Assembly: GCA_001931535.1 (NCBI GenBank)
Contig: CP016211.1
Span: 4,247,573 to 4,311,572 of the forward strand
From: Minicystis rosea
GTDB lineage: Bacteria; Myxococcota_A; Polyangia; Polyangiales; Polyangiaceae
Direction of reading: 5' to 3'
DNA length: 64,000 nucleotides
Both the position numbers and the translations under genes were made by a program. The notes under the pieces were generated by a model, which was not told the DNA's origin, ran no database searches, and was given only the letters and a program-made list of their open reading frames with translations. Position 1 is the first letter of the stretch, and the number at the start of each line of letters is the position of its first letter. Positions 49,114-58,924 of the stretch are shown here, piece by piece.

Positions 49114-49428
49114 TCAGCTCTTCGGGGTGAGGAGCTTCTGCAGCTCGCCGTTCTGGAACATCTCCATGATGATGTCGCTGCCGCCGACGAACTGGCCATC
49201 GACGTAGACCTGCGGGATCGTCGGCCAGTTGGAGAAGTCCTTGATGCCCTGGCGCAGCGCCGGATCGGCGAGGACGTTGACGTCCTTGAAGTCGGCGCCG
49301 CACTTCTTCAGCACCTCGACGGCGCGCGCCGAGAAGCCGCACTGCGGGAAGTTCTTCGTCCCCTTCATGAAGAGGACGACCCGGTTCTTCTCCACGGTCT
49401 CGCGAATGGTGCTCTGAATGTCGCTCAT
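49114..49428 (-). CDS. grxD: Monothiol glutaredoxin (Grx4/GrxD type, CGFS active site).
   Basis: [24 protein letters not shown]...[19 protein letters not shown] is 104 aa and matches the family closely. Confidence 0.9.
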
Positions 49429-49804
49429 AGGCCCCTGTTTGCACGAAGTCGCGGCGTATGCCAGCCGCGCTTTCCTCCTCGCCTTTCCTTCGTGCGCGCC
49501 GGGCTGTCAACCGGTCCCCCGTCGCGGCGGACCGCACCGCGACGGTGGTGGTGGTCACGCCACAGGCCGGACGATCGCGTGGGACCGTGAAAGGTGGGCC
49601 CGCCCGGCCCCGTTGCTCCCAGGGCCCGTCGCGATCGTGCATCTCCTTTCTGCGCTGCCGCGAACGGGTGTAGAACAGCCCCGTACATCGAACGTCTACC
49701 CGAGCAGGCCGACCCGGAAGCATGAGCCCTCGGCGGCGCGACGCGCGTCCATGTGACCGCATCCTCCCGCCGGCCGGTGAAGCCGTACCAACCAAGGAGA
49801 CCGT

Positions 49805-50551
49805 ATGCGCTTGTCCCTCCTCGTTCCTGCGACGCTGCTCTTCCTGCTGCCGATCGGCTGCGGCGGAAACGAGCAGCCGCCCATGGATCCCAGCCAGCAG
49901 CAATACGGTCAGCCCGGTGGCTACGGCCAGCCCGGCCAGCCGGGACAGCCCGGTGGCTACGGCCAGCCAGGGCAGCCCGGTGGCTATGGCCAGCCCGGCG
50001 GTTACGGGCAGCCCGGTGGCTACGCCCAGCCGGGACAGCCCGGCGGCTACGGCCAGCCCGGCGGCTATGGGCAGCCCGGTGGCTATGGCCAGCCCGGCGG
50101 TTACGGGCAGCCCGGCGCGCAGCCGCCCGCAGGTGGTGGTCAGGCGCAGCCGATCGCGCCCGCGGCGGCCGCGGCGGCGTCGCCCGTGTTGATCGGCCTC
50201 GGTGCGAGCGAAGCGCCCGGCGCGCGCCCGAACGGCGGCGTCATCGCCGGCCAGTTCCAGGAAGGGCAAACGCTGGAGCAGCCCATCAACGTCGAGCCCG
50301 GCAAGTGTTACACGGTCGTCGCGATGGGGATGGGCATCCAGCAGCTCGACGTGCAGCTCGTCGCGCAGCCGATGCCGAACTTCCCGCCGACGGTGCTCGC
50401 GCAATCGCAGGGTCAGGGCCCGCAGGCGACCCTCGGCGGCAAGGCCGCCGGTTGCTGGAAGAACCCGCTCCCCATCGGCGGTCCGGCGAAGGTCGTGATT
50501 CGCGCGACGCGCGGCGCCGGCATGGCGGCCGCGCAGGTCTACACGAAGTAA
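49805..50551 (+). CDS. Lipoprotein with a long GGYGQPGQP low-complexity repeat and a conserved C-terminal domain.
   Basis: The lipobox reads LLFLLPIGC. About 16 (G)GYGQPG(QP) units are encoded by tandem cagcccggtggctacggc DNA repeats (49910-50110). The C-terminal 110 aa has normal composition. Confidence 0.7.
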
Positions 50552-50755
50552 GCCCTTCGCAGAAACGTCGCGAGCGCCATCACGCTCGTCCTCGCGTTCG
50601 CGACGCTCGTCCCCGTCATCCTTCCCACGCCGCACGCACCGTCGAGCGTGCCTCCGATGCGCCTCCGGTTTCCGTTCCGGAGGCGTGAGGGGCAGCGCTC
50701 GGCGTGCACACAGAGGTCGGCCCGCGGTTCGCTACGGTGGAAGCTGGAGCGCCAT

Positions 50756-52744
50756 GTGAGCGAGTCCAGCCAACCTATCTTCGCCCCGGACGCGGCCCGT
50801 CCGGAGGTCACATCCCCCATCGAACGCAGGATCGCGTTGCACCTCGGAGACCTCCGCTGTCGGGGGTGCGGCCGGCGTGCAGAAACGATCCTCCGCGCCA
50901 TCCCCGGCGTGCGGACCGCGACGGTTCGCTGGCGCGAGGAGCGCGCGGACGTTCGCTTCGACGTCCAGCGAACGTCGGAGAGCGATCTCGCGGCAGCGCT
51001 GATCCGCGCCGGCTACGACGTCAGGGACACGTCGCGCGCCGCGCGCGCACCGGGCGTCGATCTCGCCATCGCGCTGGTGGCGCTCGCCAACATCATGCTG
51101 CTCGCGGTGCGCGGCGGATCCGGGCGAGCCGTCTTCGTCGCGGAGCTCGCCCTCGCGAGCATCGCGGTGCTCGCCGCCGGCGCGGCGCTCGGCCGGCGCG
51201 CGATCGCGCTGCTGCGTCGCGGGCTCCTCGATCGCGACGCCCTCGCGCTGGCCGCGGCGACCGCTGTGCTCGGCCTCGGCTTGCACGATCTGCTCGCGCA
51301 TCGAGCGCCCAGCGGCGGCCTCGCCGGGCTCGGGCTGCGCCTCGCGCCGCGGCCACCGGAGCCGGGATCCGGCTTCGTGGCGGCGGCCGCCATCGCGGTG
51401 GCGGCGCTCGCCATGCGCTTCGTCGAGGACGCGCTGCGACGACGCGCGCGCCGCGATCTGGACGCGGCGCTCGAGGATCGCGCGCCGGCAGGTCGCAGCG
51501 ACGCAGGCGACGCCGAGGTCAGGGCCGCGCTCGCGCGCCTCACCGAGGCCGAAGCCACACCGCCCGATGGCACGTGGGAGGACGCCGCCGTGCGCGGGAT
51601 CATCACCGCGGCGCTCGGCTGCGCGTCCTTCGCGCTCGTCACGCATGGCTGCTTGGGCGGAGGTCCGCTCGGGCCGCTCGCCGTCACCGCCGCCATCGCC
51701 GTGCTCGTGGTCGCGTCGCCGTCGATGATCCTCGCCGCCGCGCCGGCGGCGCGCGCCATCGCGGTGCTGCGCGCGCGGGCCGCCGGCGTGATCGTGAAGG
51801 ATCCGGCGGCGCTCGTGGCCCTCGCCGCCGTCGACGTCGCGTGCTTGGAGAAGAACGGGACGGTCACCTCCGCGCGACGCCACGTGCGCGACGTGGTGTG
51901 GATGCCCGGCGTCCTGCCCGATCTGCAGCTCATCGCCGACGTGGCCGCGCTCGAGCAGCTCTCTGCGCACCCGGCCGGGCGCGCCGTCGCCGCCTACCTC
52001 GCCGCGGCCCGCGTCGATCCCACGCCGCTCGGCGCCGACGCGCGCGTGACGGAGTCGCCCAACGGCATCGCCGGCCGCATGCGCGGCGCGCTCGTCGAGG
52101 TGGGATCACCGGCGCGCTTCGGCCTCGCGGATCACGACGGAACGGCCGGCACGAGCGCCGTGGTGTTCGGTCGCAACGGCGTCGCCCATGGCCGCTTCGA
52201 GCTGCACACGCCGCTCCGCGAGAACGCGATCGCCGCGATCCAGGCGCTCTCCGCGCGCGGCGTGCGCCCCTTGCTGCTCAGCGGCGACGCGCCCGCGGCC
52301 ACCGCGCAGGCGGCGCGCCACCTCGGCATCCCGGCCTCGGGCGGCCTCGGGCCCGCGGAAAAGGCGCTCGCCATCCGCGACCTCCAGGTCCGCGGCGCGC
52401 GCGTGCTCCTCGTCGGTGACGGCTCGCGCGACGCGGCCTTCGGAGCGCAGGCCGACGTGAGCATCGCGGTGGCGCCGGACACGCTCCCGGGCGCGGTCCG
52501 CGCGCGCATCGTCCTCACCGACGATCGCATCGATCGCCTCCCTGCGCTCGTGGACCTCGGCCGATCGCTGCGCGCCGTGCTCCGCCAGAACGCGGCCTTC
52601 GCCACCGTGTACAACGCCGTGCTGATCCCGGCCGCCGCGCTCGGCTACGTGCCGCCGCTGCTCGCCGCCGGGCTCGCGCTCCTGGAGACCATGCTCGGCC
52701 TCGCCAACGCCGCGCGCCTCCTCCGCGCGCGCGTCGGCGCGTGA
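50756..52744 (+). CDS. P1B-type (heavy-metal) ATPase homolog with an N-terminal HMA domain whose core catalytic motifs are all degenerate; a probable pseudo-ATPase.
   Basis: GGAG sits 7 nt before GTG 50756. The HMA domain reads LGDLRCRGCG. The fold aligns with CopA/ZntA (LSAHPAGRAVAAYL; LLSGDAPAATAQAARHLGI; PAEKALAIRDLQ). However, the TM6 CPC motif is SPS (about 51708), DKTGT is EKNGT (51845-51868), TGDN is SGDA, and GDGxNDxP is GDGSRDAA (52415-52432). Confidence 0.7.
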   Translation: MSESSQPIFAPDAARPEVTSPIERRIALHLGDLRCRGCGRRAETILRAIPGVRTATVRWREERADVRFDVQRTSESDLAAALIRAGYDVRDTSRAARAPGVDLAIALVALANIMLLAVRGGSGRAVFVAELALASIAVLAAGAALGRRAIALLRRGLLDRDALALAAATAVLGLGLHDLLAHRAPSGGLAGLGLRLAPRPPEPGSGFVAAAAIAVAALAMRFVEDALRRRARRDLDAALEDRAPAGRSDAGDAEVRAALARLTEAEATPPDGTWEDAAVRGIITAALGCASFALVTHGCLGGGPLGPLAVTAAIAVLVVASPSMILAAAPAARAIAVLRARAAGVIVKDPAALVALAAVDVACLEKNGTVTSARRHVRDVVWMPGVLPDLQLIADVAALEQLSAHPAGRAVAAYLAAARVDPTPLGADARVTESPNGIAGRMRGALVEVGSPARFGLADHDGTAGTSAVVFGRNGVAHGRFELHTPLRENAIAAIQALSARGVRPLLLSGDAPAATAQAARHLGIPASGGLGPAEKALAIRDLQVRGARVLLVGDGSRDAAFGAQADVSIAVAPDTLPGAVRARIVLTDDRIDRLPALVDLGRSLRAVLRQNAAFATVYNAVLIPAAALGYVPPLLAAGLALLETMLGLANAARLLRARVGA

Positions 52745-52748
52745 GCGA

Positions 52749-53933
52749 TCAACCGAGCGTCTTGAAGGATCGCGACGACGGCGCCGGGTTGGTGTTGCCG
52801 GGGATCGGCAGCAGCACCCGCAACGCGAACCCACCGGAGGGCGTGCGCTCGCCCGTGATGCGACCGCCGTGCGCGCTCACCAGCTCGCGCGCGAGGAACA
52901 AGCCGAGCCCTGCACCGCGCCGGCGGCGCTCGGCGCCCGGCGCCAGACCGCGGCGCCAGGGCTCGAAGAGCTGATCCACGTCGTCGCTGCGGAGACCGGG
53001 GCCATCGTCCTTCACCAAGATGCAGGCGCCTTCGCGACCGAGGGCCGAGACCTCCACCGTGACGGCGGCGGTGTCGCTGCTCTGGCAAGCGCTCGTCACC
53101 AAGGTCGTGAGGATGCGAAGGATCGCCTCGTCGTCCCAGAGGCCCGGCACCTCGACCACGTTCACGCGGAGCGGCGGGTGCTTGCCGACGTCGATGCGCT
53201 CGCAGGCGAGCTTCACGATCGTGCCCAGATCGCCGTGTCGCAGGCTGAGGCGGGCGCCGCCGGCGGCGCTGCTCCGCCGCGCGAACGCGCCCATGTCGTC
53301 GATGAGCCGATCCATGAGGCGCGTCAGCTCGATCACGCGATCCATGTCCTCGACACAGCGCTCGCGGGTCGGCTTGGGGAGCCGCGCGAGCCGCTCGGCC
53401 ACGACCTGGATGCCGATCGTGGGCTCGCGCAGATCCTGCCCGAGCGCGCCGATGATGCGCCGGGCCGGCTCGACGACGACCCCCGCATCCATGAACATGC
53501 CGAGCGCGCCTTTGGCGCCGCTCGGCCCGTAGACCGGCAGGAGCCAACCGAGATGCGAATCGCCGCTCCCTTCCGGCCCGCCGGAGAGCGCCGAGCCGTC
53601 GAGGGTGGCGCTGCTGCCCGCATAGACGAGATCGAGCTTGGCGCGCCAAGCGCGCTCGACCTCGGGCTGCGAGCGAAAGAGCGGCTTGCCCACCACGCTC
53701 ACGCGCAGCGCGGCGAGCGATCGATACTGGCGGTTGTGCGCGAGGCACAGGACCTCGGGGCCCCACACCAGAAACGCGGCGCCGGGAGCGCTCGAAACGA
53801 TCGACACGTTGGCGTCCACCACCGCGCGATCGGCGGCGCTCACCAGCTCGTCGAGGCTCGCCACCGAGACACCGGAGCGCGCCGAATCAGGGGTCACTCC
53901 GGACCGGTTCGAAGGCGTCATTTCCTGAGTCAC
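52749..53933 (-). CDS. Histidine-kinase-like protein with HATPase_c G-boxes but no phospho-acceptor His and a degenerate N-box.
   Basis: G1 reads VKDDGPGL and G2 reads GAGLGLFLAREL. At the H-box position the sequence is GALGQDLREPTIGIQVV (53401-53450), where canonical kinases have SHELRTPL. At the N-box position it is LVTSACQS, with no Asn. The N-terminal region is PAS-like. Confidence 0.6.
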   Translation of the reverse strand: MTQEMTPSNRSGVTPDSARSGVSVASLDELVSAADRAVVDANVSIVSSAPGAAFLVWGPEVLCLAHNRQYRSLAALRVSVVGKPLFRSQPEVERAWRAKLDLVYAGSSATLDGSALSGGPEGSGDSHLGWLLPVYGPSGAKGALGMFMDAGVVVEPARRIIGALGQDLREPTIGIQVVAERLARLPKPTRERCVEDMDRVIELTRLMDRLIDDMGAFARRSSAAGGARLSLRHGDLGTIVKLACERIDVGKHPPLRVNVVEVPGLWDDEAILRILTTLVTSACQSSDTAAVTVEVSALGREGACILVKDDGPGLRSDDVDQLFEPWRRGLAPGAERRRRGAGLGLFLARELVSAHGGRITGERTPSGGFALRVLLPIPGNTNPAPSSRSFKTLG

Positions 53934-54089
53934 TCCGGAGCGTGGGCGCCCAGCGGAGTATGGAAGACTCTACCAGAGCGTCAGCGCGCCGACCGATCTT
54001 TCTTCCCACAGCGGCCTGCGCGCCGAGACTGCGGCCGCTCTCGAGACTTCGCCCGCTCCCCGCGAGCGCGCTATCATCGCTCTGCTTTC

Positions 54090-55670
54090 ATGCGCGCATT
54101 TCGGCTTGGCATCGTGATGGCCCTCGTGCTGTGCGGGGCGCTCCCCGCCTGCGGCGCAGGGGAAGCCGGCTCCAGCACCGGGGGCAGCGGCGGTGGCACC
54201 ACGGTGCCGCCCAACCATGCGTCCGTGCGCTTCGACGAGACGGGCACCCTCGCGCTCGCGCCAGGATCCACGCACGTGCTCGGCGTCGTCGGCGAGCCGG
54301 CCGCGCCCTACGCGATCGCGTTCACGTTGCTCGGATCGCCGCTCGACGGCTGGCTCGATCCGCCCGTCACCACCGCCGGCTCGACGGGTCACGCCGGCGT
54401 GGAGCTCCACGCGCCTTCGCAGGCCACCACGTTCCACGTCCGCGCCTCGCTGCTCGACGAAAAGGGCGCGCCCGGCGCCAGCGCGGAGCGCGCGGTCGCC
54501 GTCAGCGATCAAGGCTTCGGCTCGATCCGCGTCGAGCCCATGTACGGCGGCCACCGGACCGTGACGGAGTGGACGGCGAGCGTCGTCGCCGGTCCCACCT
54601 GCAACGATCTCGCGACGACCCTGCCCGAGGAACCGCCCGGCGCGCTCGGCGCCACGGCCCCCGCCGGCGCGGTGCCCATCATCAAGAACGCGCCCGTCGG
54701 CCCCAACCTCGCCGTCGTCATCCGCGCCGGCCACTTCGCGTGGGGCTGCGCCAACACCACCGCGCTCACGCCCGGCGGCACCGTGACCGTCCCCGTGAAG
54801 GTCATCGACAAAGCCCTCGATCTCACGGGCGCGAGCCTCCTCACGACCTTCGATTTCAGCGGGGCCGCGGCGGCGCTCTCGCCGCTCCTCGCGGCCGCCG
54901 GCGCGCTCGTCGCCGAGACCTTCCTCCCGAGCAACGGCAAGGAAGGGTCGGTGATCTTGAACGCCATGGCGGCGTTGGTCCCCAGCAGCAGCACGGCAGC
55001 GTTCTCCACGCAGCGCATCGACAAGGGATGGGATGCGCTCGCGACCGCGCACTTCTCCAAGCTCGCGCCCGGCCTGCGCGATCGGCTCGTCCTCTGGTCC
55101 TCCGCCGGCCTCGCGTCGCAGTCGCTGTCGCTCGACGCGCTCCTCGCCTCCGGCAACCCAGGCCCCGCGACGGCGACCGTGACGCGCTTCGGTGACGTCG
55201 ACGGCGCGGCCGCCGGCGCCTCCAAGAGCGTCCCGCTCACGTGGAGCGCGGAGCCGCAGGACAAAGTGATCCTCAGCGCCGACATCGGGTGGGAGCCGTC
55301 CCGCTTCGCCGGCAATGCCGCGCTCGCGGCGGCGCAGGTGGACGTGCCCGACGCCGCCTCCGTGTCCGACGCGCTCGTCGCGGTCGCCGACTGCCCCGGC
55401 CTCGCGTACGCCCTCGGCAGCTTCGGTACCTGCGACGCCGCCTGCATCGAGCAGCTCTGCGAGAAGGCCATCGGCACCCGCTTCGGCGCGGCCCTCGATG
55501 CCTCGCTCAAGACCGCGGCGCTCGGCACCCTGTCCATCAAAGCCTCGGCCGACGCCACGGTCGGGGACACCGCGCAGCCCACCGGCCTCTCGGGCCACTG
55601 GCTCGGCGACCTCGCGGTCGGGGGAACGAGCATCTCCCTGAGCGGCACGCTCACCGCGCCCGCGCCGTAG
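54090..55670 (+). CDS. Large lipoprotein (526 aa), Ala/Gly/Ser/Thr-rich, of unknown function.
   Basis: The lipobox reads MALVLCGALPACGAG. Beta-rich composition is consistent across the ORF. The track ORF 52869..55670 extends far upstream through antisense of the kinase-like gene. The ATG at 54090 fits the signal peptide. Confidence 0.65.
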   Translation: MRAFRLGIVMALVLCGALPACGAGEAGSSTGGSGGGTTVPPNHASVRFDETGTLALAPGSTHVLGVVGEPAAPYAIAFTLLGSPLDGWLDPPVTTAGSTGHAGVELHAPSQATTFHVRASLLDEKGAPGASAERAVAVSDQGFGSIRVEPMYGGHRTVTEWTASVVAGPTCNDLATTLPEEPPGALGATAPAGAVPIIKNAPVGPNLAVVIRAGHFAWGCANTTALTPGGTVTVPVKVIDKALDLTGASLLTTFDFSGAAAALSPLLAAAGALVAETFLPSNGKEGSVILNAMAALVPSSSTAAFSTQRIDKGWDALATAHFSKLAPGLRDRLVLWSSAGLASQSLSLDALLASGNPGPATATVTRFGDVDGAAAGASKSVPLTWSAEPQDKVILSADIGWEPSRFAGNAALAAAQVDVPDAASVSDALVAVADCPGLAYALGSFGTCDAACIEQLCEKAIGTRFGAALDASLKTAALGTLSIKASADATVGDTAQPTGLSGHWLGDLAVGGTSISLSGTLTAPAP

Positions 55671-55804: not shown

Positions 55805-58800
55805 ATGCGGACGTCTTTCTTGTTCGGCTCCTGCGCGCTCCTCGCACTTGGCACCGGCCTCGGCTTTGGAGCGCTCGCCGCGAGCTGCGGCGGCACCACA
55901 CCCGTGGGCTCCGGTGGTTCAGGCAGCACGGGCACCGGCGGGACCGGCGGCTCCGTCGAGCAGCCGATGCCCGGTGAGATCTGCACCGATTCGACGCTGG
56001 ATCCTTCGCAGATCAAGATCCGCGTCACGCCCGCGAAGATCTTCCTGCCGACCTGCGCCGATGGAGCGTCGGGCTGTACCACGCGCACGGTGAAGGTCTT
56101 CGTCGATCCCGACACGTGCCAGCCGAGCCCGGTCACCTTCGAGGTGCCGAGCGATCAGCAGGACATCGTGCGCACGCCGGCGGCGACGCAGGTCTCGCTC
56201 CACCACGACGAGGTCCCCGTCACCATCACCGCCGGCTCGAAGCCGGGCACCGCGACGATCACCGTGAAGGTCGCCGTCCAGCCCGATCCCGCGAACAAGG
56301 ACGCGAAGCCCGTCGAGGTCACCACGCCCATCACGGTCGAGGTGCTCGACCCCGCGGTGCCCACCTGCACCGGGACGCCGGCCTCGGGCACCGTGCACGC
56401 GGACGCCGTGCCCGTCGCGCTCGGCGCCGCGAGCATCCGCCTGCCCAAGGGCGCCGACACCGCGCCGTACAACAGCTTCCTCTGGAGCGTGCCGGCCTTC
56501 GACGCGACCGTCGGGTGCTCCGCCGATCTGTCGATGCCCGGCCACGTCGCGCTCGGGCCCGCCATCACGTTCGGCCCTGAAACGAAGGTCTTCCCGCGCG
56601 AGGTGCCGCTCTCGATCCCGGTGAACCCCGGGCTCTTCCCGAGCACGGCGCGCCTGCGTCACCTCGTGGTCGCGTACTCGGGCCCGGCCTTCAAGAAGCC
56701 GCGCGCCATCCCGATCGCCGACGCGCACTTCGAGCAGGTCAACGGCCAGTGGGCGCTCCGGTTCATGGCGCCGCGCCTCGGCACGTACCAAGCGTTCGTG
56801 CCCACCGACGCGGGCACCAAGTCGATCAAGCGCCAGCTCAGCTACCGCGGCGTCACCGGCGTCTCCATGGGCGGCGGCGGCTCGGCCACGTTCGGCCTGC
56901 GCCACCACGATCTCTTCGACGTCATCGCGCCGCTCGGCGGCCCCGTCGATTGGACGTGGCTGCTCAACTACATCGAGACGAACCACCTCGGCGGCTTCCG
57001 TCCCATCACCAAGGGGACCACGCTCCCGCAGATCCAGCTCGCCGCCACCGCGTGCACCGTCGACACCGACTGCCAGAACGACGAGAAGTGCATCGGCCCG
57101 ATGGGCAACCCGCCGGGCAAGTGCGTGCTCATGCCCAAGCCCACGGAGCCGTACCTCCACCCGCAGACGTTCAACACCTGGTGGTACGAATACCCGCGCG
57201 CCGGCAACGGCGGCAGCTTCGCGCGCGACGACTACTCGCAGATCTTCCGCGACCTCGCGCTCATGTACGGCAACCCGAACGGCGACAACTTCTCGCCCAA
57301 CGGAGAGAACCTGCCGGCCGGCGTGCCGCCCGATCACGGCAGCGTCGTCGGCGATCATCCGAACCGCGAGTGCGCCGTCTGGGTCGATCCGCTCGACTGC
57401 GCCGACGGGACGGACACCTGCCCCGAGAAGCAGAAGCAGCAGGAGATCCACAACAACTGCCCGCACGAGCGCTGCAGCCACACGCTCACGCTCAACAACT
57501 ATTACGACGACGAGTACAACCCCGACGGCATCTTCCCGGTCATCACGGTCTGCGACGGCAGCCCGCAGAACCAGTCGCTCACGCCGTACGCCAACACCTG
57601 GAGCGCGGGCACGAACGACTACCCGCTCGAGGTCGGCCTGGCCGTCGACTACAACGGGAATGGGGTCCGCGACGAGCTCGAGCCCATCATCCGCGCGGGT
57701 CACGAGCCGTGGCGCGACGTCGGCACCGACGGCGTTCCGAGCTCGCAGGAGCCCGGCTACGTGGCCGGCGTGAACGAGGACCCGGCCGGCGACGACTACG
57801 ACGCGCAGTACAACCCGACCGGCACCGAAGGCGATCACCGCTACCAGCAGGGCGAGCCCTTCGACGACTACGGCCTCGACGGCGTGCAGGGCACGAAGCA
57901 GCAGCCCGCCGACGGCTGGAAGAAGCCGGGCGACGGCTACGACGTCGGCGAGGGCGACGGGAAGTTCACCGTCTCGCGCGGCCTCCAGCGCTTCTGGGAC
58001 GGCGACGCGCACTCGATCGTCCGCCGCATGGTCGATCCGAGCAAGGTGCCCGGCGGCGACCTCGGTGACGACGCGCTCTCCCGCATCGACTTCTGGACCG
58101 ACGGCGGCCTGCGCGACCTCTTCAACTTCGGCGTCGACGCGCAGCACCTCATCGGCACGTTCGCGGCCCGCGGCCGCGGCGTCACGTACCTGACCGGCTT
58201 CGGCCAGGCGCCCGGCCTCGATCCGTCGATGCCCAGCGCCTACGATCCCAAGCTCGTCGACTTCGACGATCTCCCGGGCGTCGTCTTCCAGCGCTACGGC
58301 AAGATCGATCCGACGGCGACCGACATCGAGAACGGCAGCGGCCAGCACGTCGGCACCGGCCTCGAGGTGGCGTCGCGTCTCGAAGCGGCGTTCTACTTCA
58401 TCGCCTCGCGCTGGCGGCACCGCACCGATCTGACCCTCCGCGTCGAGGACAGCGACGACACCAACTCGATCCCCGACTGCCTCGAAGGCAGCCACACCAT
58501 CACGTTCCCGCCGGAGGGCACGGCCACCGGCCCCTCGGGTCGCCGCGCCCCCATGGGCATCAGCTTCCCGCCCGGGTACTGCAACAAGCACCTGCAGAAC
58601 ATCCGCTACCCGGTCATCTACCTGCTCCACGGCTACGGCCAGGGGCCGGAAGATCTCGAGGCGACCATCGTCCTCCTGAAGAACTGGATGAACGACTCCC
58701 GCCTCAGCGGCGCCCGCCGCCTGCCCAAGGCCATCATCGTCTACGTCGACGGCCGCTGCCGCACCAACCCCGACGGCTCCGCCGAGTGCATCCGCGGCAG

Positions 58801-58924
58801 CTTCTTCACCGACAGCGTGCGCAAGACCGGCGCCCAGGACGAGCAGTGGTGGCTCGAGCTCAGCGACTACGTGAGCAAGACCTACCGCACGCTCCCGGGC
58901 GAATCGATCGAGTGGACGCCGTAG
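55805..58924 (+). CDS. Large lipoprotein (1039 aa) with N-terminal Ig-like beta domains, Cys-rich inserts and an esterase-family alpha/beta-hydrolase module.
   Basis: The lipobox reads LGFGALAASCGG. The nucleophile elbow reads GVSMGGGGS (GxSxG). The motif YLLHGYGQGPED is typical of the putative-esterase family. Many paired Cys are present. Confidence 0.75.
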   Translation: MRTSFLFGSCALLALGTGLGFGALAASCGGTTPVGSGGSGSTGTGGTGGSVEQPMPGEICTDSTLDPSQIKIRVTPAKIFLPTCADGASGCTTRTVKVFVDPDTCQPSPVTFEVPSDQQDIVRTPAATQVSLHHDEVPVTITAGSKPGTATITVKVAVQPDPANKDAKPVEVTTPITVEVLDPAVPTCTGTPASGTVHADAVPVALGAASIRLPKGADTAPYNSFLWSVPAFDATVGCSADLSMPGHVALGPAITFGPETKVFPREVPLSIPVNPGLFPSTARLRHLVVAYSGPAFKKPRAIPIADAHFEQVNGQWALRFMAPRLGTYQAFVPTDAGTKSIKRQLSYRGVTGVSMGGGGSATFGLRHHDLFDVIAPLGGPVDWTWLLNYIETNHLGGFRPITKGTTLPQIQLAATACTVDTDCQNDEKCIGPMGNPPGKCVLMPKPTEPYLHPQTFNTWWYEYPRAGNGGSFARDDYSQIFRDLALMYGNPNGDNFSPNGENLPAGVPPDHGSVVGDHPNRECAVWVDPLDCADGTDTCPEKQKQQEIHNNCPHERCSHTLTLNNYYDDEYNPDGIFPVITVCDGSPQNQSLTPYANTWSAGTNDYPLEVGLAVDYNGNGVRDELEPIIRAGHEPWRDVGTDGVPSSQEPGYVAGVNEDPAGDDYDAQYNPTGTEGDHRYQQGEPFDDYGLDGVQGTKQQPADGWKKPGDGYDVGEGDGKFTVSRGLQRFWDGDAHSIVRRMVDPSKVPGGDLGDDALSRIDFWTDGGLRDLFNFGVDAQHLIGTFAARGRGVTYLTGFGQAPGLDPSMPSAYDPKLVDFDDLPGVVFQRYGKIDPTATDIENGSGQHVGTGLEVASRLEAAFYFIASRWRHRTDLTLRVEDSDDTNSIPDCLEGSHTITFPPEGTATGPSGRRAPMGISFPPGYCNKHLQNIRYPVIYLLHGYGQGPEDLEATIVLLKNWMNDSRLSGARRLPKAIIVYVDGRCRTNPDGSAECIRGSFFTDSVRKTGAQDEQWWLELSDYVSKTYRTLPGESIEWTP

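What the first reader, a model, noticed from the sequence alone, without database searches (positions are those of the whole stretch)
50756..52744. Full-length heavy-metal P-type ATPase homolog with every catalytic motif degenerate
The protein keeps the HMA CxxC metal-binding domain and the overall CopA/ZntA fold. Its signature motifs are all changed:
- the CPC ion-transduction motif is SPS;
- DKTGT is EKNGT (phospho-Asp replaced);
- TGDN is SGDA;
- GDGxNDxP is GDGSRDAA.
Loss of every phosphorylation/ATP-hydrolysis signature in an otherwise intact 662-aa ORF suggests a repurposed pseudo-transporter, such as a sensor or scaffold, rather than random decay.
Basis: seen in the sequence. Interest (0 to 1): 0.6.

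Follow-up and report, generated by a model that had tools for sequence, protein, structure and literature searches.

The report
Dead copper-pump homolog kept by selection
This Minicystis rosea gene, annotated as a heavy-metal pump, belongs to a small clade of myxobacterial copper-pump relatives that have lost the parts needed to pump but are still preserved by selection, so they probably have a different, unknown membrane role.

Summary
Two corrections apply.

- The protein is not full-length. The actuator (A) domain with its TGE loop is deleted (about 80 aa).
- Not every motif is degenerate. SGD and the trailing "AA" occur in working pumps, and the HP nucleotide motif and the P-domain Lys are intact.

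The gene belongs to a monophyletic clade of about 35-40 clusters at 50% identity (Minicystis, Polyangium, related MAGs). It appears to derive from Cu(I)-type P1B ATPases.

- Every member lacks CPC and TGE.
- A and N domains were removed repeatedly by in-frame deletions.
- The eight-helix membrane core is kept, and the HMA CxxC is kept wherever that region is present.
- The new residues Ser321 and Glu644 are conserved.

dN/dS is 0.32 (Minicystis pair) and 0.20 (Polyangium pair), and indels are in frame.

It is therefore a non-pumping, selectively maintained pseudo-ATPase, mis-annotated as a "Lead, cadmium, zinc and mercury transporting ATPase". Its actual function (sensor, scaffold or passive pathway) is inferred, not shown. 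Sorangium lacks the gene at the syntenic site.

The parts
50756..52744 (+). Whole ORF, 662 aa: P1B-ATPase-derived pseudo-pump. The NCBI model (611 aa) starts 51 codons downstream and cuts into the HMA domain.
50746..50749 (+). GGAG ribosome-binding site, 6 nt before the GTG start. The N-terminus 'SESSQP' is shared with orthologs P0002 and P0003.
50822..51028 (+). N-terminal HMA (ferredoxin-like beta-alpha-beta-beta-alpha-beta) domain, with CxxC = CRGC at aa 35-38 (nt 50858-50869). The first Cys is kept in all 27 family members that have this region, the second in 25.
51056..51478 (+). Helices MA, MB, M1, M2. The P1B-specific eight-helix topology is retained.
51479..51574 (+). Stump replacing the actuator (A) domain: about 32 aa with one short helix. 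About 80 aa are deleted, including the TGE dephosphorylation loop.
51575..51781 (+). M3-M4, the most conserved block of the family. SPS (aa 321-323, nt 51716-51724) replaces CPC. The model still breaks the M4 helix at Ser321-Pro322.
51848..51862 (+). EKNGT in place of DKTGT (phospho-Asp -> Glu; first Thr -> Asn).
51896..52210 (+). Nucleotide-binding (N) domain, present here with SAHP (aa 403-406) intact. It is deleted in about 60% of the family and is the least constrained part (dN/dS 0.51).
52280..52291 (+). SGDA. S/T-G-D is within canonical variation; only the following Asn is lost.
52415..52438 (+). GDGSRDAA. GDG and the second Asp are kept; the invariant Asn is Arg558.
52529..52714 (+). 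M5-M6. YN (aa 619-620) is kept. MxxSS is replaced by ALLET (aa 641-645), with Glu644 conserved in 37 of 44 family members where canonical pumps have Ser (23 of 23).
49805..50551 (+). LP1, the upstream co-directional lipoprotein: lipobox, QPGGYG-rich linker and a beta-sandwich domain. It sits next to the pseudo-ATPase in 7 of 8 loci that carry the gene.
52749..53933 (-). Convergent cytoplasmic histidine-kinase-like gene, 4 nt from the ATPase stop. It is adjacent in the Minicystis-type loci but not in Polyangium. The H-box His is Gln here.
54090..55670 (+). LP2, a 526-aa lipoprotein with no family assignment. It is a conserved downstream partner in Minicystis- and Polyangium-type loci.
55805..58924 (+). 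EstL, a ~1040-aa lipoprotein with a faint esterase-fold signal. It is conserved downstream of LP2.

Best explanation
The gene encodes a catalytically dead descendant of a Cu(I)-type (P1B-1, probably CopA2/FixI-like) P-type ATPase. It belongs to a Polyangiaceae-restricted clade that stopped being ATP-driven pumps but is still kept by selection.

Shown:
- It lacks the A domain and TGE loop, so the aspartyl-phosphate could not be hydrolysed.
- The phospho-Asp is Glu.
- All three sulfur ligands of the intramembrane Cu(I) site are gone (Cys321Ser, Cys323Ser, Met641Ala).
- A Post-Albers E1/E2 transport cycle is therefore not possible.

What selection keeps across the clade:
- the eight-helix membrane domain with its M4 proline kink;
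- a re-tooled all-oxygen polar cluster (Ser321, Tyr619, Asn620, Glu644, Thr645);
- the stalk and P-domain core;
- in most members, the cytosolic HMA domain with CxxC.

Inferred: the protein works as a non-catalytic membrane module. The HMA domain binds a soft metal such as Cu(I) in the cytoplasm and docks on the vestigial headpiece. The membrane core acts as a signalling or protein-interaction platform for the envelope lipoproteins encoded beside it (LP1, LP2, EstL), and in Minicystis-type genomes possibly for the adjacent kinase-like protein.

The public annotation as a lead/cadmium/zinc/mercury-transporting ATPase is wrong in function.
For: Homology and fold:
- HMA and HAD Pfam hits but no PF00122.
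- Below the NCBIfam cut-offs for P1B families: TIGR01525 195 vs 346; TIGR01511 145 vs 397.
- AF2 model with pLDDT 81.5 and pTM 0.72. Its best Foldseek matches are ATP7B, CopA and ZntA.

Motif losses. A-domain deletion.

Clade:
- 16 relatives at 262-1218 bits, all lacking PF00122, then a drop to 143 bits for canonical pumps.
- A profile search of 1.84 billion representatives puts 31 clusters above the first canonical pump.
- All lack CPC and TGE, whereas all 23 canonical sequences have every motif.
- The clade is monophyletic in an NJ tree, next to SGD-type Cu pumps.

Selection:
- dN/dS 0.32 (CI 0.26-0.40) against the Minicystis sp. ortholog and 0.20 (0.15-0.26) for the Polyangium pair. Neighbouring genes range 0.14-0.48.
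- Nucleotide indels are multiples of 3.
- Domain deletions are in frame and preserve topology.

Gain of family-specific conserved residues: E644 37/44, S321 41/43, R339 42/43, R333 39/43, H297 36/41.

CxxC is kept wherever the HMA region exists.

Conserved LP1-pATPase-(HK)-LP2-EstL order across lineages whose ATPases share as little as 38-50% identity.
Against: - No experiment or expression data exist, so the positive function is inference only.
- HMA is absent in several members (P0009, P0012, P0016). P0009 has no out-of-frame remnant, so metal binding by HMA cannot be the universal function.
- N and A domains are lost repeatedly, and the N domain here is weakly constrained (dN/dS 0.51, CI to 0.94).
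- Sorangium So ce385 has LP1 and LP2 adjacent with no ATPase between them, and Byssovorax has LP2-EstL without it. The partners therefore do not need it.
- Much of the synteny may simply reflect vertical inheritance of a stable chromosomal region (SurA, M16 peptidase, FGE-sulfatase and Grx are also syntenic).
- The LP1 fold is a generic beta-sandwich with no link to metals.
- NG86 dN/dS in a genome with 91% GC3 is approximate.
Confidence: 0.6

Rival explanations
1. Pump-to-pathway conversion. The membrane domain, freed of the ATPase engine, acts as an ATP-independent channel or carrier for a hard cation or protons. The new all-oxygen site (Ser321, Ser323, Tyr619, Asn620, Glu644, Thr645) would form the pathway, possibly gated by the HMA domain and vestigial headpiece.
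For: - The membrane core M3-M6 is the only part present in 95-100% of members, and it is the most conserved.
- Soft S ligands are replaced by conserved O ligands, with a gained carboxylate in M6 (E644 37/44 against Ser 23/23 in pumps).
- The M4 helix break at Ser-Pro is retained in the model.
- Members that have lost HMA, A and N domains still keep the membrane core.
Against: - No precedent was found for a bacterial P-type ATPase acting as a passive pathway (literature searches found none).
- No coordinates of the model were available to check whether the residues line a cavity.
- The position after Pro322 is Ala in most members (24/43), so the site is not uniformly polar.
- There is no transport-related gene context.
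Confidence: 0.15
2. Slow-motion gene death. The clade is an eroding relic of a redundant Cu pump with no present function. The ORF persists because stop codons are rare in 75% GC DNA and because loss of a membrane protein's reading frame is mildly deleterious.
For: - Losses are progressive and lineage-specific. Polyangium keeps DKTGT, an A-sized remnant and the N domain. Minicystis lacks A and has EKNGT. Others lack N or HMA. Sorangium So ce385 lacks the gene altogether at the syntenic site.
- Catalytic columns are highly variable within the clade.
- The N-domain dN/dS confidence interval reaches 0.94.
- Very long shadow ORFs exist in other frames at this very locus (571 aa and 412 aa), so ORF length alone is weak evidence.
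Against: - Overall dN/dS is 0.20-0.32, with confidence intervals far below 1 and equal to neighbouring bona fide genes.
- All clearly resolved indels are in frame.
- Deletions excise whole domains while preserving the helix count.
- New residues became fixed and conserved (E644, R333, R339, S321).
- The clade has persisted down to 38-45% pairwise identity without a single stop.
Confidence: 0.17
3. It is still an ATP-driven transporter that uses non-canonical chemistry (glutamyl-phosphate, no A domain) and moves a non-thiophilic metal.
For: - The N-domain HP motif, P-domain Lys536, S-G-D and two Asp residues of GDGxxD are retained.
- Polyangium relatives retain an intact DKTGT.
Against: - The A domain with TGE is absent from every member. 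In all studied P-type ATPases that loop is required for E2P hydrolysis (established knowledge; also stated for the P4 module in PMC13466520).
- Asp->Glu at the phosphorylation site is inactivating in studied P-type ATPases (own knowledge for SERCA). Asp->Glu in the Toxoplasma P4-GC module gave non-viable parasites (PMC13466520).
- Most of the clade lacks the N domain altogether.
Confidence: 0.03

Closest known systems
P1B-1 Cu(I)-exporting P-type ATPases (CopA; A. fulgidus 3J09, L. pneumophila 3RFU/4BBJ), especially the CopA2/FixI/CcoI-like 'SGD' subtype
   Same: - N-terminal HMA domain with CxxC.
- Eight-helix MA, MB, M1-M6 topology with an M4 proline kink.
- M5 YN, the P-domain Rossmann core, N-domain HP motif, S-G-D and the P-domain Lys.
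- Best sequence and structure matches, and nearest canonical neighbours in the NJ tree.
   Different: - No A domain or TGE.
- CPC->SPS, MxxSS->ALLET, DKTGT->EKNGT, and N->R in GDGxND.
- Fails the curated NCBIfam cut-offs for every P1B family.
- Cannot cycle.
P1B subgroups with non-CPC M4 motifs (P1B-4 'SPC' with an M6 HEGxT motif; P1B-5, -6, -7). Motifs are from my own knowledge of the Arguello and Smith-Rosenzweig classifications; the subgroup list is in PMC7558416.
   Same: A Ser-Pro start to the M4 motif and a Glu in M6 recall P1B-4. P0037, an SPC/HEGST pump, is in the alignment.
   Different: - Those subgroups keep a Cys in M4 and all catalytic motifs (TGE, DKTGT, GDGxND), and they are active pumps.
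- P1B-4 lacks MA/MB and M5 YN, whereas this clade has both.
- The resemblance is therefore convergent at most.
P4-ATPase-like module of alveolate guanylate cyclases (P4GC), where DKTGT Asp and DGET Glu are degenerate in Cryptosporidium, P4GC-beta and others (PMC13466520)
   Same: A P-type ATPase body is retained as a module after loss of the phosphorylation and dephosphorylation residues in some lineages, and it is proposed to serve a regulatory or structural role.
   Different: - Eukaryotic, a P4 (lipid flippase) lineage, fused to a cyclase.
- A and N domains are structurally retained.
- No metal-binding domain.
- No homology beyond the superfamily.
Small HMA metallochaperones and membrane-tethered HMA proteins (CopZ, MerP, MerTP)
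   Same: The HMA fold with CxxC. NCBIfam gives weak hits to CopZ, MerP and MerTP models.
   Different: - All those hits are below their cut-offs.
- The canonical GMTCxxC context is DLRCRGC here.
- The domain is fused to a large P-type membrane body.

Membership tests
Functional P-type ATPase (Post-Albers pump) | DKTGT with phosphorylatable Asp | tested here: not met
   EKNGT at aa 365-369. The alignment to 23 canonical sequences, all with DKTGT, is unambiguous.
Functional P-type ATPase (Post-Albers pump) | Actuator domain with the TGE(S) dephosphorylation loop (Pfam PF00122) | tested here: not met
   No PF00122 hit. The M2-M3 span is 84 aa against 160-170. There is no TGE anywhere in the protein or the family.
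Functional P-type ATPase (Post-Albers pump) | P-domain motifs (T/S)GD, conserved Lys, GDGxND | tested here: inconclusive
   SGD, K536, GDG and D559 are present. The invariant Asn is Arg558, and the Asn after SGD is Ala.
Functional P-type ATPase (Post-Albers pump) | ATP hydrolysis and phosphoenzyme formation | not testable with these tools
   Needs purified protein and [gamma-32P]ATP.
P1B-1 Cu(I) ATPase (CopA/CopA2) | M4 CPC | tested here: not met
   SPS at aa 321-323. The family has S at the first position in 41 of 43 members and never Cys.
P1B-1 Cu(I) ATPase (CopA/CopA2) | M5 YN and M6 MxxSS | tested here: not met
   YN is kept (aa 619-620), but M6 is ALLET (M->A, S->E, S->T).
P1B-1 Cu(I) ATPase (CopA/CopA2) | N-terminal HMA with CxxC and eight TM helices (MA, MB, M1-M6) | tested here: met
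   Pfam HMA 30.3 bits against a cut-off of 24.8. CRGC at aa 35-38. The AF2 model has the eight helices.
P1B-1 Cu(I) ATPase (CopA/CopA2) | Curated family score (NCBIfam TIGR01511, TIGR01525) | tested here: not met
   144.7 against 397, and 195.3 against 346.25. Only the generic TIGR01494 'HAD-IC family P-type ATPase' model passes (103.3 against 62.3).
P1B-1 Cu(I) ATPase (CopA/CopA2) | N-domain HP nucleotide motif (SEHP) | tested here: met
   SAHP at aa 403-406, with a Glu five residues upstream retained.
HAD-superfamily fold | Rossmannoid fold; nucleophilic Asp in motif I | tested here: inconclusive
   The fold is met (PF00702 60.1 bits against 26.4; AF2 and Foldseek to CopA/CopB P-N domains). 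The nucleophile is not met (Glu365).
Unitary pseudogene (non-functional relic) | Frameshifts or stops in this gene or its orthologs; dN/dS near 1 | tested here: not met
   There are no stops. The five window-L001 and five L001-L002 indels are all multiples of 3; window-L002 has five such indels plus one 1+2 nt pair, probably a split 3-nt indel. dN/dS is 0.32 (0.26-0.40) and 0.20 (0.15-0.26).
Two-component metal sensor module (pseudo-pump plus adjacent kinase) | Obligate co-occurrence with the kinase; intact phospho-acceptor His; cognate response regulator nearby | tested here: not met
   The kinase is absent from the Polyangium loci. The H-box His is Gln in the window, L001 and L002. No response regulator lies in the immediate neighbourhood.

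The most novel reading that the evidence does not exclude
A bacterial P-type pump lineage has been converted into an ATP-independent membrane device. This could be a metal-gated cation or proton pathway, or a transmembrane receptor ('transceptor'). The ion site is re-tooled from Cys/Cys/Met to Ser/Asn/Tyr/Glu/Thr. The now useless A, N and even HMA domains are being shed independently in different lineages. If so, the clade is a natural dissection series showing the minimal functional core of a P-type ATPase membrane domain.
Probability: 0.2. Interest if true: 0.85.

Novelty: new variant of a known kind. Interest (0 to 1): 0.6.

Why it matters
P-type ATPases are textbook obligate ATP-driven pumps, and pseudoenzyme versions are barely documented. 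The only analogue I found is the degenerate flippase module of some alveolate guanylate cyclases.

- **A comparative system.** A bacterial clade lost the engine (A domain, phospho-Asp, Cu thiolates) but keeps the membrane core under purifying selection and has evolved new conserved residues. It shows what a P-type membrane domain can do without ATP.
- **A natural deletion series.** The four architectures (A+N+, A-N+, A+N-, A-N-) give ready-made constructs for structural and biophysical work.
- **An annotation problem.** These proteins are named heavy-metal-translocating ATPases in public records. That inflates metal-resistance gene counts in myxobacterial genomes and soil metagenomes.

Tried and rejected
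- **Genome-contig scan.** The full family alignment (A1) had no stretch conserved enough. Species distribution therefore rests on protein searches.
- **Canonical paralog in M. rosea.** This could not be tested. No other P-type ATPase lies in the 64-kb window, and no tool searches that genome alone.
- **LP1 structure.** The model was confident, but the fold is a generic beta-sandwich (C. perfringens enterotoxin C-terminal domain, PliG, collagen-binding-like; E about 5e-4) with no metal clue.
- **Family searches for neighbours.** Pfam and NCBIfam gave nothing for LP1 and LP2, and only a sub-threshold Esterase (PF00756) hit in Pfam for EstL.
- **RNA and promoter scans.** Rfam found nothing in 49400-54200. 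The promoter scan found nothing, and the terminator-like sites were within chance.
- **Literature searches.** No paper on bacterial pseudo-P-type ATPases was found. Subscription journals are not covered.
- **afdb50 fold library.** It was unavailable.
- **Kinase-coupled sensor idea, downgraded.** The kinase is absent in Polyangium, and its phospho-acceptor His is Gln in the Minicystis clade.
- **Glutaredoxin partner idea, rejected.** It is a CGFS monothiol, housekeeping-type Grx that is syntenic even where the ATPase is missing.
- **Alternative GTG start at 50648, rejected.** The extra 36 aa are not shared by orthologs, and the RBS sits before 50756.
Full report
**Source and gene model.** The window is Minicystis rosea (Polyangiaceae, 16-Mb genome). 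The protein is 100% identical to an NCBI entry named 'Lead, cadmium, zinc and mercury transporting ATPase'. The ORF 50756..52744 (+) is open and has coding-type codon-position GC (GC1/2/3 = 0.80/0.58/0.91). Its GTG start is preceded by GGAG at a 6-nt spacing, and its N-terminus (SESSQP) is shared with orthologs. The NCBI model (611 aa) starts 51 codons later and truncates the HMA domain. A longer start at 50648 is not supported by orthologs.

**Checking the observation.**
- Pfam finds an HMA domain (aa 30-88) and the HAD-hydrolase fold (aa 366-567), but not PF00122, the E1-E2 ATPase/actuator model.
- NCBIfam places the protein below the cut-off of every P1B family: TIGR01525 at 195 against 346, and TIGR01511 at 145 against 397. 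Only the generic P-type model passes.
- phmmer against PDB aligns it with A. fulgidus CopA (E=1e-30), rice HMA4 and ZntA.
CRGC (35-38) lies at the canonical beta1-alpha1 position of the HMA fold.
- No shifted canonical motif exists.

**Corrections to the observation.**
- The protein is not full-length. The M2-M3 span is 84 aa, against 160-170 aa in 22 of 23 canonical sequences (one has 193). The A domain, including the TGE loop that hydrolyses the aspartyl-phosphate, is deleted. The AF2 model (pLDDT 81.5, pTM 0.72) shows only a short helix there.
- SGD is not degenerate, because 11 of 23 canonical pumps have it. GDGxNDAA also occurs in canonical pumps. In those two motifs only the two Asn residues are really lost.
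- The HP nucleotide motif (SAHP), the Glu five residues before it, and the P-domain Lys536 are intact.
All three sulfur ligands of the intramembrane Cu(I) site are therefore gone. The residue mapping to the LpCopA ligands is from my own knowledge.

**It is a family, not a one-off.**
- The word-indexed search returned 16 relatives (262-1218 bits), none with PF00122, followed by a sharp drop to canonical pumps at 143 bits.
- A profile search of 1.84 billion cluster representatives put 31 clusters above the first canonical pump, plus a few fragments below it.
- In a joint alignment, every family member lacks CPC (S-P-[A/S] typically) and TGE. All 23 canonical sequences have TGE, CPC, DKTGT, xxHP, [ST]GD, GDGxND and MxxSS, and 22 of 23 have YN (one has FN).
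- The clade is monophyletic in an NJ tree, and its nearest canonical neighbours are SGD-type Cu pumps (a rough tree).
- Named sources are Minicystis, Polyangium (sp. 15x6, mundeleinium) and 'delta proteobacterium' or Polyangiaceae MAGs.

**Architecture varies in a structured way.**
- The M2-M3 span is bimodal (about 165 aa or about 55-108 aa). The DKTGT-to-TGD span is also bimodal (about 141-155 aa or about 19-42 aa). This gives A+N+, A-N+ (this gene), A+N- and A-N- forms.
- Even the A-sized remnants have no TGE.
- Polyangium proteins (780 aa) still have a perfect DKTGT but carry SPA, no TGE, ATHR for SEHP and SDGQED for GDGxND.
- Loss of CPC and TGE is therefore ancestral to the clade. Loss of the phospho-Asp and of whole domains came later and independently.
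- HMA is present in about 60-70% of members, the N domain in about 40%, and M3-M6 in 95-100%. The most conserved block is M4 and its continuation into the P domain.

**Selection.**
- NG86 dN/dS against the Minicystis sp. ortholog (77% aa identity) is 0.32 (bootstrap 95% CI 0.26-0.40).
- The Polyangium pair gives 0.20 (0.15-0.26).
- By region: HMA 0.22, membrane helices 0.29, P domain 0.30, N domain 0.51 (CI to 0.94).
- Neighbouring genes in the same comparison give 0.14-0.48.
- Nucleotide alignments show only indels that are multiples of 3. One 1+2 nt pair is probably a split 3-nt indel.
- The clade has fixed residues that canonical pumps do not have: Ser321 (41/43), Arg333 (39/43), Arg339 (42/43), His297 (36/41) and Glu644 (37/44, where pumps have Ser in 23/23).
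- ORF length alone would be weak evidence in 75% GC DNA, because shadow ORFs of 571 and 412 aa overlap this gene. The other lines argue against a neutral relic.

**Genomic context.**
- The order Grx(-) | LP1(+) | pseudo-ATPase(+) | kinase-like(-) | LP2(+) | EstL(+) recurs in the window and in four fetched Minicystis-type loci. The contig carrying P0014 shows the same order up to its end in a gene at the LP2 position.
- Polyangium has LP1 | pseudo-ATPase | LP2 | EstL with 57-198-nt gaps and no kinase.
- LP1, LP2 and EstL all have lipoprotein signal peptides.
- LP1 has a confident beta-sandwich domain of a generic binding type.
- LP2 has no family assignment. EstL has only a faint Esterase (PF00756) signal, below the Pfam cut-off.
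- The link is not obligate. Sorangium So ce385 has Grx | LP1 | LP2 with nothing in between. S. cellulosum So0157-2 has LP1 followed by a Ser/Thr kinase. Byssovorax has LP2-EstL alone. One HMA-less member (P0009) sits elsewhere.
- A larger stretch (SurA-like, M16 peptidase, FGE-sulfatase) is also syntenic, so vertical inheritance explains part of the conservation.

**Mechanism, shown.** Without the TGE loop, without a nucleophilic Asp, without the conserved Asn of GDGxND and without the Cu thiolates, the protein cannot run the E1-E1P-E2P-E2 cycle or occlude Cu(I). The roles of these residues are established knowledge. The general statements on the DKTGT Asp and the A-domain Glu are also in PMC13466520, and the P1B domain functions in PMC7558416.

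**Mechanism, inferred.** What is conserved points to the membrane core plus a stalk and P-domain stub as the functional unit, usually coupled to a cytosolic CxxC metal-binding domain. My preferred reading is a non-catalytic metal-binding or signalling scaffold in the inner membrane. About 0.35 of the 0.6 I give to the 'maintained dead pump' statement goes to this specific role. The main rivals are an ATP-independent cation or proton pathway using the new oxygen-ligand site (0.15) and a slowly eroding relic (0.17). Residual ATPase activity is very unlikely (0.03).

**Comparison with known systems.**
- It works like none of the described P1B subgroups. Those with non-CPC M4 motifs (P1B-4 to -7) keep all catalytic motifs.
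- It fails the membership tests for a functional P-type ATPase and for P1B-1, while clearly descending from them.
- The nearest conceptual analogue is the P4-ATPase-like module of alveolate guanylate cyclases, in which the DKTGT Asp and DGET Glu are degenerate in some lineages (PMC13466520).
- I found no paper describing a bacterial pseudo-P-type ATPase clade in the searchable library. That library omits most subscription journals.

**Verdict.** The sequence observation is right in its core and wrong in two details: the protein is not full-length, and not every motif is degenerate. The interpretation 'repurposed rather than randomly decayed' is supported by family-wide conservation and purifying selection, but the proposed sensor or scaffold role remains untested. 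This is a new variant of a known kind, of moderate-to-good interest (0.6). It also corrects a functional mis-annotation.

Noticed in passing
window 52749..53933 (-): The convergent histidine-kinase-like gene (HATPase_c only; no HisKA hit, no TM segment) has Gln where the H-box phospho-acceptor His should be ('GQDLREP'). The same holds in L001 and L002. The more distant L003 ortholog keeps His ('AHDFREP'). It may be a second pseudoenzyme next to the pseudo-pump. dN/dS is 0.30.
   Followed up: partly
window 49805..50551 (+): LP1 is a lipoprotein with a ~90-aa disordered QPGGYG-repeat linker and a confidently modelled C-terminal beta-sandwich with two invariant Cys. It has more than 380 homologs across Polyangium, Sorangium and Minicystis and no family assignment. 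It is strongly constrained (dN/dS 0.14).
   Followed up: partly
window 50660..50685 (+): A 9-bp GC-rich inverted repeat (stem 50660-50668 / 50677-50685, 8-nt loop) lies in the 205-nt gap between LP1 and the pseudo-ATPase, about 70 nt before the start codon. It has no T-run. Conservation in orthologous loci was not checked.
   Followed up: no
window 50756..50908: The public NCBI gene model for this protein (611 aa) starts 51 codons downstream. It therefore lacks the CxxC half of the HMA domain, and its product name asserts Pb/Cd/Zn/Hg transport.
   Followed up: yes
window 54090..55670 (+) and 55805..58924 (+): Two further lipoproteins: LP2 (526 aa) and EstL (~1040 aa, faint PF00756 esterase signal). 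Neither has a family assignment. They travel together downstream of the pseudo-ATPase in Minicystis- and Polyangium-type loci, and without it in Byssovorax.
   Followed up: partly
L009 6093..9566 (Sorangium sp. So ce385): The syntenic locus has UDG, Grx(-), LP1 and LP2 directly adjacent (a 240-nt gap), with neither the pseudo-ATPase nor the kinase-like gene. This is either complete loss or the ancestral state.
   Followed up: partly
L005 6864..9206 and L008 10843..13185 (Polyangium spp.): The 780-aa family members keep a perfect DKTGT and an A-domain-sized insert, but have no TGE, SPA for CPC and SDGQED for GDGxND. They are an intermediate stage that might still be phosphorylated but could not turn over.
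   Followed up: partly
window 49114..49428 (-): The divergent neighbour is a monothiol CGFS glutaredoxin (Grx4/GrxD type). It is syntenic in all related loci, including those without the ATPase, so it is probably unrelated to the finding.
   Followed up: yes
window 50704..52419 (+) and 50732..51970 (-): Shadow ORFs of 571 aa and 412 aa overlap the gene in other frames. They are typical of 75% GC DNA and a reminder that ORF length alone is weak evidence of coding here.
   Followed up: no
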